Source of the DNA: Escherichia coli
Lineage (GTDB): Bacteria; Pseudomonadota; Gammaproteobacteria; Enterobacterales; Enterobacteriaceae
Direction: 5' to 3' (one strand)
Length of the DNA: 64,000 bases
Assembly: GCF_017348835.2 (NCBI RefSeq)
Contig: NZ_CP071375.1
Shown here piece after piece: positions 54,433 to 60,135 of this stretch; position 1 is the stretch's first letter, and each line of letters starts with the position of its first letter. The translations under genes and the position numbers were made by a program. The notes under the pieces were generated by a model. The model was not told the DNA's origin. It was given only the letters and a program-made list of their open reading frames with translations, and made no database searches.

Positions 54433-55785
54433 GTGTTTATTGGTTTTGATTACGGTACAGCAAACTGTTCAGTGGCGGTCATGCGTGACGGTAAACCGCA
54501 TTTGCTAAAAATGGAAAACGACAGCACGCTGCTGCCTTCAATGCTTTGCGCGCCAACGCGTGAAGCGGTAAGCGAATGGCTGTACCGCCATCATGATGTT
54601 CCGGCAGACGACGATGAAACGCAGGCGCTGTTGCGTCGGGCGATTCGTTATAACCGCGAAGAAGATATCGATGTTACAGCGAAAAGCGTGCAGTTCGGTC
54701 TTTCCTCACTGGCACAGTACATTGATGATCCAGAAGAAGTGTGGTTTGTGAAATCACCAAAATCGTTCCTCGGTGCCAGCGGCTTAAAACCGCAGCAGGT
54801 AGCGCTGTTTGAGGATCTGGTCTGCGCAATGATGTTGCACATTCGCCAGCAGGCGCAGGCGCAGCTGCCAGAAGCGATTACTCAGGCGGTGATTGGTCGC
54901 CCGATCAACTTCCAGGGGCTGGGCGGCGATGAAGCAAACGCCCAGGCGCAAGGGATTCTGGAACGCGCGGCGAAGCGTGCCGGGTTTAAGGATGTGGTAT
55001 TCCAGTACGAGCCGGTAGCGGCAGGGCTGGATTACGAAGCGACTTTGCAGGAAGAAAAACGGGTGCTGGTGGTGGATATCGGCGGTGGTACGACTGACTG
55101 TTCATTGCTGCTGATGGGGCCGCAGTGGCGTTCGCGTCTCGATCGTGAAGCCAGCCTGCTGGGTCACAGTGGTTGCCGTATTGGCGGTAACGATCTGGAT
55201 ATCGCGCTGGCGTTTAAAAACCTGATGCCGTTACTGGGCATGGGTGGCGAAACCGAAAAAGGCATCGCCCTGCCGATTCTGCCGTGGTGGAATGCGGTTG
55301 CCATCAACGACGTACCTGCGCAGAGTGATTTCTACAGTAGTGCCAACGGTCGTCTGCTTAACGATCTGGTACGCGATGCCCGCGAACCGGAAAAAGTGGC
55401 CCTGCTACAGAAAGTCTGGCGTCAGCGTTTAAGCTATCGCCTGGTGCGTAGCGCAGAAGAGTGCAAAATTGCTCTTTCAAGCGTAGCGGAAACCCGCGCC
55501 TCACTGCCTTTTATCAGCGATGAACTGGCTACGCTGATTAGCCAGCAAGGGCTGGAAAGCGCCCTCAGCCAGCCACTGGCGCGGATTCTGGAACAGGTGC
55601 AACTGGCCCTCGATAACGCCCAGGAAAAACCGGACGTTATCTACCTGACCGGCGGAAGCGCCCGTTCGCCGCTGATTAAAAAAGCGCTGGCAGAACAGTT
55701 GCCGGGCATTCCGATTGCAGGCGGCGATGACTTTGGCTCCGTCACCGCCGGGCTGGCACGCTGGGCGGAAGTGGTGTTTCGTTAA
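54433..55785 (+). CDS. yegD: Hsp70-family ATPase-like protein YegD
   Basis: Actin-like ATPase motifs (FIGFDYGTANCSVAV, VVDIGGGTTD). Likely GTG start at 54433; the ORF-track start at 54370 is a TTG and is probably an upstream extension. Confidence 0.85.
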   Translation: MFIGFDYGTANCSVAVMRDGKPHLLKMENDSTLLPSMLCAPTREAVSEWLYRHHDVPADDDETQALLRRAIRYNREEDIDVTAKSVQFGLSSLAQYIDDPEEVWFVKSPKSFLGASGLKPQQVALFEDLVCAMMLHIRQQAQAQLPEAITQAVIGRPINFQGLGGDEANAQAQGILERAAKRAGFKDVVFQYEPVAAGLDYEATLQEEKRVLVVDIGGGTTDCSLLLMGPQWRSRLDREASLLGHSGCRIGGNDLDIALAFKNLMPLLGMGGETEKGIALPILPWWNAVAINDVPAQSDFYSSANGRLLNDLVRDAREPEKVALLQKVWRQRLSYRLVRSAEECKIALSSVAETRASLPFISDELATLISQQGLESALSQPLARILEQVQLALDNAQEKPDVIYLTGGSARSPLIKKALAEQLPGIPIAGGDDFGSVTAGLARWAEVVFR

Positions 55786-55797
55786 TTGAAAAATGGC

Positions 55798-57738
55798 TCA
55801 GCAGCGGCTTAAATCTGCCTGCGCCTGAGCCAGTTTTTCTGCCGCCTGACGTAACGGTTCCATCAACGGCATGGTCCGTGCTGGAGCATGAAGGCGGAAT
55901 CGCTGCAACTCTGTCGCGCCGACAGTCAACGCCGATTCCAGCCGATGTCGTTTGGCGGCCATTTTCGCCATTACCGCTTGTCTGTCTGCAGGCGTTACCG
56001 CTTCGTTCGGCCTGAACACAAAACGGCGTTCACAGCTCGCTTTCCAGTCGATAACCGCCTGGGTCAGATGATCACCAAACCCTTTAACTTGCTTAACCCC
56101 ACGACGGGTAACATCCGCGGCTGTTTCAATACCAAAAGACCGTAACGCCGCTTTACGCGCAGGGCCAACGCCGGGAATAGAGGCAGCATCAATAAAAAAT
56201 CCCTCCAGAAACTTCTGCTTCTGCCGTTCCCTTGCGGTGTCGTGAAGTGCTGCCAGAGCACGTTTTTCTTCTTCCGGTAACCCGAGAATTTCTTCCTTCA
56301 TTTTTTCGAGCATCGTCCGTTTGGCGATAAAACCTTCCAGCCCGCCCAACTGTTGGATCTGGCTGACTAAATGGTCATAGTCCATTTTCGCGCGATTAAA
56401 TGCCTCACGGCGTTGCTGGATTTCTGCTTTATAAGCTTTGCTTGTCAGACTGCCAATAATCCAGATAGCCGCCAGCACAGGAACCAAAATAATATAACGC
56501 GGTTCTGCCTGAAGGCCGCAAAGCAGCAGCGATACCGCTGACAGTGCGATCTCAATCAGGATGATGTATTCGCGCCGTAACAGGCCTGAAGGAAGCGGCC
56601 TGCCAGTCGGTTGGAAATGATCGGGTAATGGCAGTTGCAATGCTGGCGGCGCTACTGACGCCATCACCATCGCCCAGACTTTCGCCAGCACAAAATCACC
56701 GCTGGTGGTAATGACCTCTTCGCCGAGATCAATAAAATAGATAACGCCTTGATTATCCAGCGCACACCACGGGCAGTCAGTCAAATGAGCTGGGTAAACA
56801 TGCATTGCTGAAACGGTACATTTCTTTAACTGTTGGCGTAGAGAGTCCAGTGCCGCTACCCACGCTTTAGCCGTCGGACGCCCCGTTGCCACGCCACTTT
56901 CCGTGAATGCCTGCTGAAACATGGCTTCAACATCACTCGGTAACATCGATAGCGGAATAGATCGTGGCGGCGGTTTTAAACCACGTCGCTGATTATCTGA
57001 CGCGTAGGCATAACGGAAATGGGTAATATCCGTCTCCAGCGCATTACCCGCATCAGAGATAAGCGGCACACCAGAATAAGGATGCCGCCCACCAAACAAG
57101 ACGTGAAAAATCAGCAACGCAAGGCCAAAATTATCGTGATTCGCGGTACGTTCAAAACCGACAAATGATGGCAAGGTTTGTAGCTCTGGCGGCGTAAAAT
57201 GCGACACGCCGACTTCGCATAAATGCAGTGTGCCATTGGCGTTAATCTGAAAGGAGTCACTATCGATCAACACCACTTTGCTGTCGCGACCTACCATAAA
57301 GCTGTTCTGGTTTACGTCCCCCACGACGTGCCCGTGCTCGTGAACCGTAGCAAAAGATGAAGCAATATTGCGCGCAACATAGAGTAGAAAATCCCACGCA
57401 CAATGAGGGTAACGTTGACGACGATGTGCCGGGCTATAGATCATATGAATCGGTTCTTTACCAGAAACTTTTGGCATCATAAAACCGATAACTTTTCCGC
57501 CTCGTCCACCGTGAAGCGTTGCCTGCGGCCAGGCGACATAATTCAACAACTGCGCGTCAGCTGTCGCAGCCATAAAGGCAAGTTTGTCCTGTTTTAAGGC
57601 GGGTGGCGGCGTGTGATAAATCTTGGCGACGCTATCGACAAACTCATTGATATCATAAACCGCGCCTTCGCCACCTTTGCCCAGTTCACGGCCTGGCGTA
57701 ACGCACTCACCAGTAGCAGTATATAAAGTGGGTTTCAT
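55798..57738 (-). CDS. yegI: Eukaryotic-like Ser/Thr protein kinase YegI, with membrane segment and C-terminal extension
   Basis: About 646-aa ORF with kinase-like N-terminal domain (GKGGEGAVY...HGHVVGDVNQNSF...DSDSFQ); its start lies 3 nt from the yegK stop. Confidence 0.85.
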   Translation of the reverse strand: MKPTLYTATGECVTPGRELGKGGEGAVYDINEFVDSVAKIYHTPPPALKQDKLAFMAATADAQLLNYVAWPQATLHGGRGGKVIGFMMPKVSGKEPIHMIYSPAHRRQRYPHCAWDFLLYVARNIASSFATVHEHGHVVGDVNQNSFMVGRDSKVVLIDSDSFQINANGTLHLCEVGVSHFTPPELQTLPSFVGFERTANHDNFGLALLIFHVLFGGRHPYSGVPLISDAGNALETDITHFRYAYASDNQRRGLKPPPRSIPLSMLPSDVEAMFQQAFTESGVATGRPTAKAWVAALDSLRQQLKKCTVSAMHVYPAHLTDCPWCALDNQGVIYFIDLGEEVITTSGDFVLAKVWAMVMASVAPPALQLPLPDHFQPTGRPLPSGLLRREYIILIEIALSAVSLLLCGLQAEPRYIILVPVLAAIWIIGSLTSKAYKAEIQQRREAFNRAKMDYDHLVSQIQQLGGLEGFIAKRTMLEKMKEEILGLPEEEKRALAALHDTARERQKQKFLEGFFIDAASIPGVGPARKAALRSFGIETAADVTRRGVKQVKGFGDHLTQAVIDWKASCERRFVFRPNEAVTPADRQAVMAKMAAKRHRLESALTVGATELQRFRLHAPARTMPLMEPLRQAAEKLAQAQADLSRC

Positions 57739-58496
57739 GGTAACCACAGCGCCAGTGCCAACGTTTTATCATCATCGGTACGCTCGTTTACCGCTGGGCT
57801 CGACAAAAACTGCTTTAACAATTCAGGTAATAAATCGAGTTGTTCCTGCGTTGCTGCCGCCAGTCCATTGAAAAAAGAGGTAAAGAAAGGCACATGGGGA
57901 GAATTATCCAGCATATTTAACGCCAGTCGCTGGATACCATCCGTAAATGCTGCAACTTTATGCACACGCTCAGTGCTGGTGAAAGTTTCCAGTCTGGAAA
58001 CGGCATCTTCATCGGTAATGAAGTGCGTCATATTGGCATATTCACCCACCATCGGCGTGAGCGGCAGTTCCAGACCACGACCAAAATCCACCACTACACC
58101 GCCGTCGCCAATTTGCATAATCAATGTGCCGTTAGCCGATGAAATCAATCCCAGAAACGTGCAGGCAAAATCGCGAACCGCTAATGCTTTGGCTTCCGCC
58201 TCGGCAAAAAGTCGCTGACGAATGGTCAGCACAATATCCGTGGCGAGGACATCATTAACCCCCAATTCACCGCCCTGTACTTTTTGCATCATAAACGCCA
58301 TCGCTTCATTGACGGCGAGCGTCGCGCCTTCTCCTCCCTGCGAAACGCTACCTGCGCCATCAGCAAGGAACATCACCAGTAATGGTTGCTGGTCGTTTAG
58401 CCAGGCAACCTGCATCTGGCAGGCATCCTGACAAGGTAAATCAGCGCTAATGTGCGACGTTCCAACAGCGGATGCATAAACCAGACGCCAGCTCAC
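57735..58496 (-). CDS. yegK: PP2C-family protein phosphatase YegK (PphC)
   Basis: 253-aa ORF in an operon with the kinase; overlaps yegL stop by 4 nt. Confidence 0.85.
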
Positions 58497-59152
58497 ACTG
58501 ACGTCCAGCCTTTTGGCGCTTCCAGCACAACTTCCGTTCCCGGCGTGGAGCGGGAAACCGAACGCAGCGAACTGGATAACCAGCTAAACAGTTCACGGAA
58601 TTGTAATCCCTGCAGTGGCAAAGGCTGACGAACGCTGATTTGTGCCAGCGTCTTCATATCCGCCCCCTGAACACCGATGGAAAAGAAGGCAAACTTCTTA
58701 TCTTCTTCCCCCTGAAACACTTTGTTGGCGGCAGCCTGCCACTCATCGGTTGGAGCGCCATCGGTGATCAGGAAAATCCACGGGCGATAATACGAAATAC
58801 CATTTGCGCGGTACTCACGTTTCCTCTCTTCAACCATATCCAGGGCTTTGGTAATGGCGGCCCCCATAGGCGTATCCCCCTGGGCAAACAGGATGGGCGG
58901 GAAAAAGTTAGCGGCGCTGGTAAAGGGTTGTTCCACATGCACCGGGCCGAACGTCACAATGCCGAGTTCCACTCTTTTTAAAGCCAGCGGATCAGCAAGC
59001 AGTTCATCACGAAAGGTAACCAATCCGGCGTTAAGTTCATTAATAGGTCTGCCGCTCATCGAGCCAGAAACATCCAGCAGCAGAATGCAGGGGCAACGTG
59101 GTTCCGGGTTACTGGCAAAATCGCTGGTGGCAAACGTGATTTGTTCGCTCAT
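58493..59152 (-). CDS. yegL: von Willebrand factor A (vWA) domain protein YegL
   Basis: 219-aa ORF with vWA MIDAS-like start ([12 protein letters not shown]); first gene of the yegL-yegK-yegI operon. Confidence 0.85.
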
Positions 59153-59333
59153 AAGAAATCCTTTCTTAGAGAATTATTGAGGTCCGGTATCATACCGACT
59201 GCAATAATGAAATAAGAGCAGGCAAAGCAACTTTCAGAATTCGGCCCGGCGGCGCAGAAAATTTTGCTATTCGCCTCGCAAGAACGGAGAGCCGTCGATT
59301 GACACTAAGGGCGGAGTGACATAATTTCAGGAG

Positions 59334-59480
59334 TGAGGGTTAGGGAGAGGTTTCCCCCTCCCCCTGGTGTTCTTAGTAAGCCTGGAAGCTAATCACTAAG
59401 AGTATCAGCAGTATGATGACGTGCTTCATCATAACCCTTTCCTTATTAAAAGCCCTCTTCTCCGGGAGAGGGTTTCCCGT
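59334..59480 (+). ncRNA. sib: Sib-type antisense sRNA (type I antitoxin), copy 1
   Basis: Sigma70-like promoter (TTGACA 59299-59304, 17-bp spacer, TAATTT 59322-59327); transcript fully antisense to the ibs ORF; GC hairpin gccctcttctccgggagaggg followed by a T-run at about 59453-59483. Ends are approximate. Confidence 0.6.
59374..59433 (-). CDS. ibs: Ibs-family type I toxin (19-aa hydrophobic peptide MMKHVIILLILLVISFQAY), copy 1
   Basis: Hand translation of the reverse complement of 59374-59433 gives a 19-codon ORF plus stop that matches the Ibs toxin family and lies inside the antisense Sib unit. Confidence 0.75.
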
Positions 59481-59668
59481 TTCAGCGTCCCGCTGAAATC
59501 GTCGGCTTACCTCCTTTCGCCCTGAATGCAGTCTATCGCTAACGCGTGAACAAAATAGTTCCCTCTGTGATTATTGCGTAACGACTCGCAAAGAATATTT
59601 GCTGGCAGGATCGCAGACTGCAAAGCCTGCAGATTGACAATCTTATCGTGAAGGCATACTTTCAGGAG

Positions 59669-59808
59669 TGAGGGTAGAGTGGGGTTTCCCCCGCCCTGGT
59701 AGTCTTAGTAAGCCGGGAAGCTTATGACTAAGAGCACCACGATGATGATCCACTTCATCATGACCCTTTCCTTATTTAAGGCCCCTTCCTCGGGAGGGGC
59801 TTTCCCGT
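59669..59808 (+). ncRNA. sib: Sib-type antisense sRNA, copy 2
   Basis: Promoter TTGACA 59634-59639, 17-bp spacer, TACTTT 59657-59662; terminator-like hairpin gccccttcctcgggaggggc followed by tttcccgttt near 59781-59810. Ends are approximate. Confidence 0.6.
59705..59761 (-). CDS. ibs: Ibs-family type I toxin (18 aa, MMKWIIIVVLLVISFPAY), copy 2
   Basis: Hand translation of the reverse complement; 18 codons plus stop; Ibs-like. Confidence 0.75.
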   Translation of the reverse strand: MMKWIIIVVLLVISFPAY

Positions 59809-59996
59809 TTCAGCGTCCCGCTGAAATCGTCGGCTTACCTCCTTTCGCCCTGAATTCAGTCTATCGCTAACGCGTGAACAAAATAGTTTCCTCTGTGATT
59901 ATTGCGTAACGTCTCGCAAAGAATATTTGCTGGCAGGATCGCAGACTGCAAAGCCTGCGGATTGACATTCTGAACGTGAAGGCATACTTTCAGGAG

Positions 59997-60135
59997 TGAG
60001 GGTAGAGCGGGGTTTCCCCCGCCCTGGTAGTCTTAGTATGCTGGGTAGCTAATCACTAAGAGCACCACGATGATGAGTATCTTCATCATGACCCTTTCCT
60101 TATTTATGGCCCCTTCCTCGGGAGGGGCTTTCCCG
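59997..60135 (+). ncRNA. sib: Sib-type antisense sRNA, copy 3
   Basis: Promoter TTGACA 59962-59967, 17-bp spacer, TACTTT 59985-59990; terminator-like hairpin ending near 60135. Ends are approximate. Confidence 0.6.
60033..60089 (-). CDS. ibs: Ibs-family type I toxin (18 aa, MMKILIIVVLLVISYPAY), copy 3
   Basis: Hand translation of the reverse complement; 18 codons plus stop; Ibs-like. Confidence 0.75.
   Translation of the reverse strand: MMKILIIVVLLVISYPAY

What the first reader, a model, noticed from the sequence alone, without database searches (positions are those of the whole stretch)
55798..59152. vWA / PP2C phosphatase / Ser-Thr kinase operon (yegL-yegK-yegI)
Three overlapping minus-strand genes encode a von Willebrand A domain protein, a PP2C-type phosphatase and a eukaryotic-like Ser/Thr kinase with a membrane segment. 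Kinase, phosphatase and vWA triads recur in bacterial signalling and some stress or defence modules, and the physiological role of this one is still poorly defined. The operon lies directly beside the ibs/sib toxin array. It is conserved core DNA rather than new, but it is one of the least understood parts of the window.
Basis: partly seen in the sequence, partly recalled or inferred. Interest (0 to 1): 0.4.

Follow-up and report, generated by a model that had tools for sequence, protein, structure and literature searches.

The report
E. coli yegL-pphC-yegI phosphorylation triad
This is the already annotated E. coli yegL-pphC(yegK)-yegI operon, an intact three-gene kinase/phosphatase/vWA switch of the TerY-P type; the kinase is membrane-anchored and carries a likely DNA-binding tail, its enzymes are characterised, and its cellular role is still unknown.

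Summary
Three minus-strand genes, yegL (58493-59152), pphC/yegK (57735-58496) and yegI (55798-57738), are joined by 4-nt GTGA and ATGA overlaps. They lie next to three ibs/Sib repeats.

The window is E. coli. The locus is in 5417 of 5426 complete genomes and is annotated. PphC and YegI are published as active enzymes, so the finding is already known.

New here:
- All three proteins are distant homologues, in the same gene order, of the TerY3/PP2C/kinase triad of IncHI2 ter clusters. This makes the locus a TerY-P-class triad, although PADLOC's TerY-P defence models do not recognise it.
- YegI is a Hanks-fold kinase followed by an invariant Cys/His zinc knuckle, a two-helix membrane hairpin, an (HhH)2 domain and a long coiled coil.
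- The 3.4-kb cassette is mobile. It occurs across many bacterial phyla and in Methanoregula, keeps its gene order in 72 of 74 loci, and sits on megaplasmids, in a Tn7-like element and often in defence islands. It has no conserved fourth gene.
- dN/dS of 0.05-0.15 shows the genes are maintained.

The likeliest role is a nucleic-acid or mobile-element triggered stress or defence switch. This is inferred, not shown. Interest is modest.

The parts
58493..59152 (-). yegL: cytoplasmic single-domain vWA protein of TerY type (219 aa). MIDAS residues D27-x-S29-x-S31, T94 and D131; serine-rich conserved C-terminal tail.
   Evidence: ORF and RefSeq annotation. Pfam VWA 6e-10. MIDAS positions, at least 97% conserved in 84 orthologues. 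29% identity, E 1e-21, to IncHI2 TerY3. No hydrophobic segment.
57735..58496 (-). pphC (yegK): PP2C-family Ser/Thr phosphatase (253 aa), GTG start inside a GTGA overlap with the yegL stop.
   Evidence: Pfam PP2C_2 1.5e-47. Conserved Asp/Gly motifs D24, D46-G-A-G-S50, D131-G132, D186-G187, D242-D243. Published as a Mn-dependent phosphatase that dephosphorylates YegI.
55798..57738 (-). yegI: membrane-anchored Ser/Thr kinase (646 aa), ATG inside an ATGA overlap with the pphC stop.
   Evidence: AlphaFold model has mean pLDDT 94.3. Published as an active kinase.
56839..57738 (-). YegI aa 1-300: divergent Hanks-type kinase domain. P-loop G20-G25, K39, catalytic D141 in VGDVNQNS, DSD159-161 in place of DFG, TPPE182-185.
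   Evidence: Motifs. Invariant G22, E24, K39, D141, N143, D159, D161, S162, P184, E185 in 80 homologues. Profile hits to 205 PDB kinases. Foldseek best match PknB, TM 0.71. No Pfam Pkinase hit at E<=0.01.
56749..56832 (-). YegI aa 303-330: zinc knuckle/ribbon, C307, H313, C322-P-W-C325.
   Evidence: C307, H313, C322, W324 and C325 are invariant. Two short strands and a helix in the model. The same RPTA..W..AL...C...CP[WY]C segment aligns with the IncHI2 ter-cluster kinase.
56419..56574 (-). YegI aa 389-440: two-helix membrane hairpin with a short periplasmic loop; both termini cytoplasmic.
   Evidence: Hydropathy peaks at 391 and 415. Helices 389-408 and 418 onward. PhoA-LacZ fusion topology in bioRxiv 10.1101/819920.
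56020..56187 (-). YegI aa 518-573: (HhH)2 domain with two Gly-hydrophobic-Gly hairpins (G523-V-G525, G553-F-G555).
55804..55992 (-). YegI aa 583-645: long C-terminal helix or helical hairpin (coiled coil), a likely dimerisation element. Contains the published autophosphorylation sites S602 and S644.
   Evidence: Helix 583-645, or two helices in the C-terminal model. Coiled-coil matches. Phosphosites and non-first-order (published as second-order) autophosphorylation kinetics.
59153..59298 (-). 146-bp region upstream of yegL, up to the first Sib gene. Presumed operon promoter region; an AAAGGA ribosome-binding site lies before the ATG.
   Evidence: Sequence. No sigma-70 consensus match on the minus strand, in line with very low published expression.

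Best explanation
The region is an intact three-gene phosphorylation switch of the TerY-P class. It was acquired horizontally and is now fixed in Escherichia.

The three genes are made as one unit, because the start and stop codons overlap by 4 nt at both junctions.

Shown in vitro by others: YegI sits in the inner membrane with its kinase domain and tail in the cytoplasm. It switches itself on by autophosphorylation of Ser162 in its DSD activation segment, with non-first-order kinetics consistent with oligomerisation, which suggests phosphorylation in trans between molecules. PphC removes these phosphates and resets the switch.

Inferred here: the trigger is read by the conserved (HhH)2/coiled-coil tail, which would bind nucleic acid next to the membrane and bring kinase molecules together. 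YegL, the most conserved member, would be the MIDAS-metal adaptor and probably a substrate, through its conserved serine-rich tail, coupling the phosphorylation state to a target.

The most likely biological role is a conflict or stress response to incoming or damaged DNA (phage, plasmid, xenobiotic DNA stress) rather than routine growth signalling. In E. coli the operon is kept almost silent. Its identity and architecture are near certain. The role and trigger are hypotheses.
For: Identity and architecture.

TerY-P class: each protein is homologous to its counterpart in the IncHI2 ter-cluster triad, which has the same order vWA-PP2C-kinase. YegL vs TerY3 gives E 1e-21, PphC vs the PP2C gives 9e-6, and YegI vs the kinase gives 2e-5, including the zinc-ribbon segment.

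Self-contained cassette: 72 of 74 loci with enough upstream DNA keep contiguous vWA-PP2C-kinase. The vWA/PP2C junction abuts or overlaps (median -1 nt). No fourth gene is conserved.

Mobility: at least 3238 clusters of homologues, in many bacterial phyla and in Methanoregula, and on conjugative plasmids and megaplasmids.

- BrxR, JetB, SLFN helicase and ScoMcrA
- AbiH, KAP NTPase and a Tn7-like element
- GmrSD, type I RM and SymE
- type I RM and Mrr
- E1/E2/JAB, dCTP deaminase and a recombinase
- JetCD, GmrSD and PIN-TPR

Precedent: TerY-P modules act as stand-alone anti-phage systems (Gao 2020, as cited in PMC11090510, PMC7699616 and bioRxiv 2022.08.12.503731).

Maintained, not decaying: dN/dS is 0.05 for yegL, 0.15 for pphC and 0.14 for yegI, and catalytic and MIDAS residues are conserved.

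Link to DNA: overproduction of YegL or of YegI raises endogenous DNA damage (bioRxiv 354589), and YegI overexpression slows growth.

Biochemistry.
Against: - No trigger, substrate or phenotype is known, and expression is barely detectable.
- PADLOC's TerY-P models do not recognise the proteins: YegL vs 'TerY' gives only E 0.013, and there is nothing for PphC.
- The cassette has no obvious effector domain.
- It is species-core in E. coli, which is unusual for a defence system.
- There is no signal of diversifying selection.
- In 30 dereplicated loci across the wider family, the immediate neighbours are mostly ordinary and heterogeneous. Only a few are defence proteins, such as 2 GajA and 2 ResIII/DEAD, and one close context is purely housekeeping.
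- HhH domains can also mediate protein contacts (NusA AR2), and DNA binding is untested.
- YegL is 57-85% identical across phyla. That fits a universal ligand better than recognition of a variable phage protein.
Confidence: 0.5

Rival explanations
1. Ordinary physiological Ser/Thr signalling. YegI/PphC would be E. coli's counterpart of PrkC/PrpC or PknB/PstP, tuning housekeeping proteins in stationary phase or envelope stress, with YegL as a scaffold.
For: - Hanks fold, closest to PknB.
- Kinase and PP2C paired in one operon, as in many bacteria.
- Core in E. coli and under purifying selection.
- Weak stationary-phase expression reported.
- YegI is counted among the few known E. coli S/T kinases.
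Against: - No extracytoplasmic sensor domain, only a short periplasmic loop.
- Among homologues ranked by similarity, none from a named organism falls between E. marmotae (92%) and Klebsiella spallanzanii (63%); the only entry in between is an unnamed 76% metagenome fragment. So no Salmonella or Citrobacter orthologue was seen.
- The patchy, cross-domain distribution on plasmids, a transposon and islands is not what a housekeeping regulator shows.
- The strict linkage to a TerY-type vWA gene is not a feature of PrkC or PknB systems.
Confidence: 0.25
2. Metal or xenobiotic stress sensing, as proposed for TerY-P triads in tellurite-resistance (ter) clusters. The YegL MIDAS site would sense a metal, and phosphorylation would relay the signal.
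For: - Direct homology and the same gene order as the IncHI2 ter-cluster triad.
- The MIDAS site is perfectly conserved.
- Both enzymes prefer Mn2+.
- TerY-P has been hypothesised to be a metal-sensing switch (Anantharaman 2012, as cited).
- The very high conservation of YegL suits a small universal ligand.
Against: - No TerD, TerB or TerC genes lie near the E. coli locus or near any sampled relative.
- The similarity to ter-cluster proteins is remote (22-29% identity).
- This idea does not explain the HhH tail or the defence-island contexts.
Confidence: 0.15
3. A cryptic leftover. The cassette was acquired once and is now silent and without function in E. coli.
For: - Transcription is hard to detect, and PphC abundance is 0.004 ppm.
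- No consensus promoter.
- About a third of genomes carry a yegJ-like segment; in the K-12-type genomes examined it lies between pphC and yegI.
- yegI mutations recur in the long-term evolution experiment.
Against: - All three reading frames are intact in nearly all of 5400 genomes.
- dN/dS is 0.05-0.15.
- Catalytic residues are kept.
- Both enzymes are active in vitro.
Confidence: 0.07

Closest known systems
TerY-P (TerY-phosphorylation) triad of ter clusters, e.g. TerY3 / PP2C / kinase on IncHI2 plasmids (Anantharaman, Iyer & Aravind 2012, known here through PMC11090510 and PMC4978471)
   Same: Same three protein families in the same order and on the same strand. There is pairwise homology for all three. 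The vWA protein has an intact MIDAS site and a similar Ser-rich tail. The kinase is followed by a Cys-rich zinc ribbon that aligns with YegI 297-325.
   Different: - YegL lacks the TerY-C metal-binding extension (219 vs 346 aa).
- PphC is a minimal PP2C (253 vs 545 aa).
- YegI adds a membrane hairpin, an (HhH)2 domain and a coiled coil (646 vs 499 aa).
- No Ter genes lie nearby.
- Identities are only 22-29%.
TerY-P anti-phage defence system (Gao et al. 2020; active against T7-like phages and Autographiviridae)
   Same: A stand-alone three-gene vWA / PP2C / Ser-Thr kinase cassette. The kinase carries a C-terminal domain likely to bind nucleic acid.
   Different: - That kinase ends in an OB fold, not a TM hairpin plus HhH.
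- PADLOC models built for it do not match YegL, PphC or YegI.
- Anti-phage activity of the E. coli locus has never been tested.
TerY-P modules attached to type II/III-A CoCoNuT (McrBC-like) systems
   Same: TerY-like vWA, PP2C and a kinase fused to a zinc ribbon. YegI also has the zinc knuckle directly after the kinase.
   Different: No CnuB, CnuC, CnuH or CnuE genes are near the E. coli locus or the sampled relatives. YegI has the extra membrane and HhH parts.
Hanks-type kinase / PP2C pairs PknB-PstP and PrkC-PrpC
   Same: The same kinase fold, best structural match PknB. Activation-segment autophosphorylation is reversed by a PP2C encoded alongside.
   Different: - No PASTA or other external sensor.
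- VGD and DSD replace HRD and DFG.
- Obligatory vWA partner.
- Cytoplasmic HhH tail.
- Mobile distribution.
Phage-defence kinases PD-T4-6 and Mokosh MkoA kinase region
   Same: Weak profile similarity over the catalytic core, E 2.5e-4 to 5e-3.
   Different: The similarity is confined to generic kinase motifs. The architectures and partners differ.

Membership tests
TerY-P triad (comparative-genomics class) | Stand-alone TerY-type vWA protein with a complete MIDAS motif (DxSxS...T...D) | tested here: met
   D27, S29, S31, T94, D131, at least 97% conserved in 84 orthologues. BLASTP to IncHI2 TerY3: 29% over 188 aa, E 1e-21. tblastn hits to 'TerY-C metal binding domain' vWA genes on more than 2000 plasmids.
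TerY-P triad (comparative-genomics class) | Adjacent PP2C-family phosphatase gene | tested here: met
   PP2C_2 at 1.5e-47. 26% identity, E 9e-6, to the ter-cluster PP2C. Metal-binding Asp motifs conserved.
TerY-P triad (comparative-genomics class) | Adjacent Ser/Thr kinase gene, co-directional, order vWA-PP2C-kinase | tested here: met
   4-nt overlaps in the window. The same order in the IncHI2 ter cluster and in 72 of 74 related loci.
TerY-P triad (comparative-genomics class) | Kinase fused at its C-terminus to a zinc ribbon | tested here: met
   Invariant C307, H313, C322, C325. This segment aligns with the ter-cluster kinase. Zinc binding itself was not tested.
TerY-P anti-phage system (Gao 2020 / PADLOC) | Proteins recognised by the PADLOC TerY-P profile models | tested here: not met
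   YegL vs 'TerY' gives E 0.013 (13 bits). PphC has no hit. YegI hits only PD-T4-6 and MkoA weakly. The IncHI2 ter triad is also missed, so these models are narrow.
TerY-P anti-phage system (Gao 2020 / PADLOC) | Kinase with a C-terminal OB fold | tested here: not met
   The YegI C-terminus is all-helical: TM hairpin, helical bundle, (HhH)2 and coiled coil.
TerY-P anti-phage system (Gao 2020 / PADLOC) | Protects against phage when expressed | not testable with these tools
   No published test was found for yegLKI.
Hanks-type (eukaryotic-like) Ser/Thr protein kinase | Bilobal protein-kinase fold | tested here: met
   The family profile hits 205 PDB kinases. Foldseek: PknB, E 1e-7, TM 0.71. Model pLDDT is above 95 over aa 10-300.
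Hanks-type (eukaryotic-like) Ser/Thr protein kinase | Match to the Pfam Pkinase model above the curated cut-off | tested here: not met
   No Pkinase hit at E<=0.01. This is a divergent branch.
Hanks-type (eukaryotic-like) Ser/Thr protein kinase | Catalytic Lys (VAIK), catalytic Asp and Mg-binding Asp | tested here: met
   K39, D141 and D159 are present and invariant. HRD is replaced by VGD and DFG by DSD. K39D and D141N abolish activity.
PPM/PP2C phosphatase | PP2C domain above the Pfam gathering score, with conserved metal-binding aspartates | tested here: met
   162 bits against a cut-off of 24. Conserved residues. Activity published.
(HhH)2 nucleic-acid-binding domain | Two helix-hairpin-helix motifs with Gly-hydrophobic-Gly hairpins forming one globular unit | tested here: met
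(HhH)2 nucleic-acid-binding domain | Binds DNA | not testable with these tools
   Inference only. Some HhH domains bind proteins instead.

The most novel reading that the evidence does not exclude
The near-silent, species-core yegL-pphC-yegI operon could be an unrecognised branch of TerY-P immunity. A membrane-anchored kinase would detect DNA entering or accumulating at the inner membrane through its (HhH)2 tail. It would then, through the highly conserved vWA protein YegL, trigger a protective or growth-arresting response against phages or plasmids. Current defence-finding tools miss this branch even though it is present in essentially every E. coli.
Probability: 0.3. Interest if true: 0.65.

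Novelty: already known. Interest (0 to 1): 0.33.

Why it matters
E. coli has very few Ser/Thr kinases, and this operon holds its only reported PP2C-like phosphatase and eukaryotic-like Ser/Thr kinase (as described in bioRxiv 10.1101/303594 and 10.1101/819920). Even so, no trigger, substrate or phenotype is known.

Placing the operon in the TerY-P class, with a membrane-anchored tail that likely binds DNA and relatives that travel with defence islands and mobile elements, turns 'unknown signalling genes' into specific experiments:
- phage and plasmid challenge
- DNA-dependent kinase activation
- YegL as a substrate

If the defence reading holds, standard defence-system catalogues would be missing a system carried by nearly all E. 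coli. It would also give a tractable model for how TerY-P triads work. If it does not hold, the locus remains an ordinary, already annotated operon.

Tried and rejected
- **PADLOC membership.** It was tested at E up to 10 and failed for the defence models. The locus is therefore not filed as a Gao-type TerY-P system.
- **A conserved fourth gene or effector.** All-against-all clustering of flanking ORFs in 90 loci found no conserved neighbouring family beyond the three triad genes themselves. The next clusters were antisense-ORF artefacts or lineage-specific genes in at most 12 loci. The genes directly downstream differ by lineage: TetR, an SH3 protein, or unknowns.
- **Accessory genes.** A 69-aa basic protein and an exported SNase accompany the triad in some beta-proteobacterial relatives, but the window has no trace of them.
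- **Defence-island enrichment across the whole family.** The two nearest ORFs on each side in 30 dereplicated loci are heterogeneous and mostly ordinary. There was no proper control, so the association is claimed only as partial.
- **Diversifying selection within E. coli.** Rejected. pphC and yegI evolve about three times faster than their neighbours, but dN/dS is about 0.15.
- **Promoter and terminator scan.** Nothing exceeded the shuffled expectation, and no minus-strand promoter lies upstream of yegL.
- **Phage genomes.** There was only one partial kinase hit.
- **yegD as part of the system.** Rejected, because it is absent from all non-Escherichia contexts.
- **Primary papers.** Anantharaman 2012 and Gao 2020 could not be read. 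Their content is cited second-hand.
Full report
**What is there.** The window is Escherichia coli. The stretch 55600-59400 is 100% identical to strain PE164, and 5417 of 5426 complete E. coli genomes carry a matching locus. The ORF scan and the RefSeq annotation of the identical strain agree on three minus-strand genes:
- yegL, 58493-59152, 219 aa
- pphC (yegK), 57735-58496, 253 aa, GTG start
- yegI, 55798-57738, 646 aa

An upstream in-frame GTG at 57747 gives the 649-aa ORF, but annotation and the literature use the ATG. The junctions read ...TCA GTG TGA, with pphC starting at the GTG (GTGA overlap), and ...CCA TGA, with yegI starting at the ATG (ATGA overlap). The stop codon of yegI lies only 12 bp from the stop codon of the convergent gene yegD. 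Upstream of yegL there are 146 bp and then three Sib/ibs repeats.

**Domains.**
- YegL is a single vWA domain (Pfam 6e-10) with a complete MIDAS motif: D27, S29, S31, T94, D131.
- PphC is a PP2C_2 domain (1.5e-47).
- YegI gets no Pfam kinase hit. However, a profile of 80 homologues matches 205 solved protein kinases. A very confident AlphaFold model (mean pLDDT 94.3) superposes best on M. tuberculosis PknB.

The window allele keeps the P-loop, K39, D141, the DSD159-161 segment and TPPE. In the family alignment K39, D141, D159, D161 and S162 are invariant.

The kinase domain is followed by four further parts:
- an invariant C307/H313/C322/C325 zinc knuckle
- two membrane helices, about 389-408 and 418-440
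- a helical bundle with two helix-hairpin-helix motifs, whose Gly hairpins at 523-525 and 553-555 are conserved
- a 60-residue terminal coiled coil

**What was already published.** Rajagopalan and Dworkin showed that PphC is an active Mn-dependent PP2C that dephosphorylates YegI. The alleles of B and K-12 strains differ by about 8% (bioRxiv 10.1101/303594). They also showed that YegI is an active, Mn-preferring kinase that needs K39, D141 and its DSD segment. It autophosphorylates on Ser153/160/162 and on Ser602/644, with non-first-order kinetics that the authors report as second order. It is a two-pass inner-membrane protein with both ends in the cytoplasm (bioRxiv 10.1101/819920). Expression is barely detectable, and PphC abundance is listed as 0.004 ppm. 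Overproduction of YegL or YegI raises endogenous DNA damage (bioRxiv 10.1101/354589). YegI overexpression slows growth. No substrate, trigger or phenotype is reported. Co-transcription is still only inferred.

**Which family it belongs to.** YegL finds the vWA genes of ter (tellurite-resistance) clusters on more than 2000 plasmids. In an IncHI2 plasmid the last of these, TerY3, is followed by a PP2C gene and a kinase gene, the same order as yegL-pphC-yegI. Pairwise comparisons give:
- YegL vs TerY3: 29% over 188 aa, E 1e-21, with MIDAS and the Ser-rich tail aligned
- PphC vs the PP2C: 26%, E 9e-6
- YegI vs the kinase: 22%, E 2e-5, over the C-lobe and the zinc-ribbon segment RPTA..W..AL...C...CP[WY]C

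This is the 'TerY-P triad' of Anantharaman et al. 2012, as described in PMC11090510 and PMC4978471. All of its defining features that I could test are met. By contrast, the PADLOC models for the experimentally validated TerY-P anti-phage system do not recognise these proteins. That system's kinase ends in an OB fold, not an HhH tail. I therefore file the locus as a member of the TerY-P class but not of the Gao/PADLOC defence family. The PADLOC models also miss the IncHI2 ter triad, so they are narrow.

**Comparative genomics.**
- YegI-like proteins with the full ~646-aa architecture form at least 3238 clusters at E<=1e-30.
- They occur in Alpha-, Beta-, Gamma- and Deltaproteobacteria, Actinobacteria, Acidobacteria, Chlorobi, Cyanobacteria, Clostridiales, Synergistetes and Planctomycetes, and in Methanoregula archaea.
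- In 72 of 74 loci with enough upstream DNA the three genes are contiguous in the same order, and the vWA and PP2C genes abut or overlap.
- YegL is the most conserved member (median 63% identity to E. coli). PphC is at 40% and YegI at 38%.
- The nearest relatives with a named organism outside Escherichia are only about 60-63% identical. They come from Klebsiella spallanzanii and K. aerogenes, at a different chromosomal site, and from Betaproteobacteria. The only entry between 92% and 63% is an unnamed 76% metagenome fragment. This points to horizontal acquisition by an Escherichia ancestor.
- Full-length copies are also on Pseudomonas megaplasmids, Cupriavidus and Ralstonia replicons, and Rhizobium and Agrobacterium plasmids.
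- No fourth gene is conserved.

**Genomic context.** Six have recognised conflict genes within 10 kb:
- BrxR, JetB, SLFN-type helicase and ScoMcrA
- AbiH and KAP NTPase inside a Tn7-like element
- GmrSD, type I RM and SymE
- type I RM and Mrr
- an E1/E2/JAB set, dCTP deaminase and a recombinase
- JetCD, GmrSD and PIN-TPR

One context is plain housekeeping and one is uninformative. Across 30 dereplicated loci of the wider family, the two nearest ORFs on each side are heterogeneous: 143 Pfam families in 119 proteins. Only a few are defence proteins, such as two Gabija GajA. The defence-island association is real but partial, and I had no matched control.

**Selection in E. coli.** I compared six alleles. 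Mean dN/dS is 0.05 for yegL, 0.15 for pphC and 0.14 for yegI, against 0.05 for yegD and 0.03 for mdtA. The genes are maintained by purifying selection. pphC and yegI evolve about three times faster than their neighbours at the protein level, but there is no overall sign of positive selection.

**How it most likely works.**
- Shown by others in vitro: the YegI kinase is activated by autophosphorylation, with kinetics consistent with phosphorylation between molecules, and PphC reverses it.
- Shown here from sequence and models: tight translational coupling of the three genes, a strictly conserved gene trio, an intact MIDAS site, a zinc knuckle, a membrane hairpin and an (HhH)2/coiled-coil tail.
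- Inferred: the tail binds nucleic acid close to the membrane and promotes kinase clustering. YegL is the adaptor and probably a substrate. Its C-terminal serines S193, S195, S200 and S202 are at least 97% conserved and shared with TerY3.
- Also inferred: the output is a stress or defence response to foreign or damaged DNA. I give this about 0.5 overall. The class assignment is near certain, and the role is perhaps 0.3-0.4.

The rivals are ordinary growth signalling (0.25), metal or xenobiotic sensing as in ter clusters (0.15) and a functionless relic (0.07).

**Novelty and verdict.** The operon, its annotation and the activities of two of its three proteins are already known, so the finding is not new. 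This analysis adds the explicit TerY-P class assignment by direct homology, the full architecture of YegI, the mobile and cross-domain distribution with frequent defence-island contexts, and the failure of current defence-finder models to see it. These make the open question testable but do not answer it. Interest is modest (0.33). If the defence reading proved true, it would deserve about 0.65.

Noticed in passing
window 59299-60104: This strain has three tandem ibs/Sib toxin-antitoxin repeats. The Sib RNAs are at 59299-59447, 59634-59776 and 59962-60104 (+). The ibs ORFs are at 59373-59432, 59705-59761 and 60033-60089 (-). Copy number differs between E. coli strains: 2 in J53/K-12, AR_0081 and D8, and 3 in PE164, O157:H7 and Ecol_545.
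   Followed up: partly
window 57735-57738 (site of the insertion in other strains); L002 3646-4370: The yegJ gene (DUF2314, opposite strand) separates pphC from yegI in K-12-type strains and is absent from this window. A yegJ-like segment is present in 1934 of 5426 complete E. coli genomes, about 36%. That is far more than the 'K-12 strains only' stated in the papers. I did not check its position in every genome.
   Followed up: partly
window 55786-55797: yegD (+) and yegI (-) converge with only 12 bp between their stop codons and no terminator-like hairpin. The pair is listed as an 'excludon' with overlapping transcripts (PMC12288877). A sigma-S-dependent transcript antisense to yegI was seen in vitro (PMC3141248).
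   Followed up: partly
L003 7719-8474; L099 7691-8473; L009 7700-8501; L008 8075-8284; L016 4198-4404; L020 11966-12163: In several beta-proteobacterial relatives the triad is flanked by a very conserved 69-aa basic protein (MKFGMRKPSLKK...RGWGWLTNPKRAAYNRVY, 79-87% identical between loci, no Pfam family). Often there is also a staphylococcal-nuclease homologue with a signal peptide. This could be an accessory or effector module. It is absent from the window.
   Followed up: partly
window 58493-59152 (YegL): YegL is unusually conserved for a mobile gene: 57-85% identity to orthologues in other phyla, and about 60% to Methanoregula archaea. That is much higher than its partner kinase and phosphatase. 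About 70 of its 219 positions are at least 97% conserved. This is unexplained.
   Followed up: partly
window 57735-58496 (pphC): Within E. coli, pphC is the fastest-evolving gene of the neighbourhood. Protein identity to other strains is 91-95%, and dS is 0.21 against 0.09-0.14 for the flanking genes. This agrees with the ~8% B vs K-12 difference and the kinetic differences reported in bioRxiv 10.1101/303594.
   Followed up: yes
L100 8995-13197 (IncHI2 plasmid of E. coli): E. coli strains carrying IncHI2 ter plasmids have a second, distantly related vWA-PP2C-kinase triad (TerY3, a 545-aa PP2C and a 499-aa kinase) beside TerW, TerD-family and other ter genes. PADLOC's TerY model does not recognise it either.
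   Followed up: partly
window 54433-55785 (yegD): The Hsp70/actin-like gene yegD matches NCBIfam PRK11678 at 3e-243. It has a weak PADLOC hit to the candidate PDC-M61B (1e-5, a 27-residue stretch). It is not linked to the triad outside Escherichia. It is reported to be induced by yegJ overexpression (PMC13232886).
   Followed up: no
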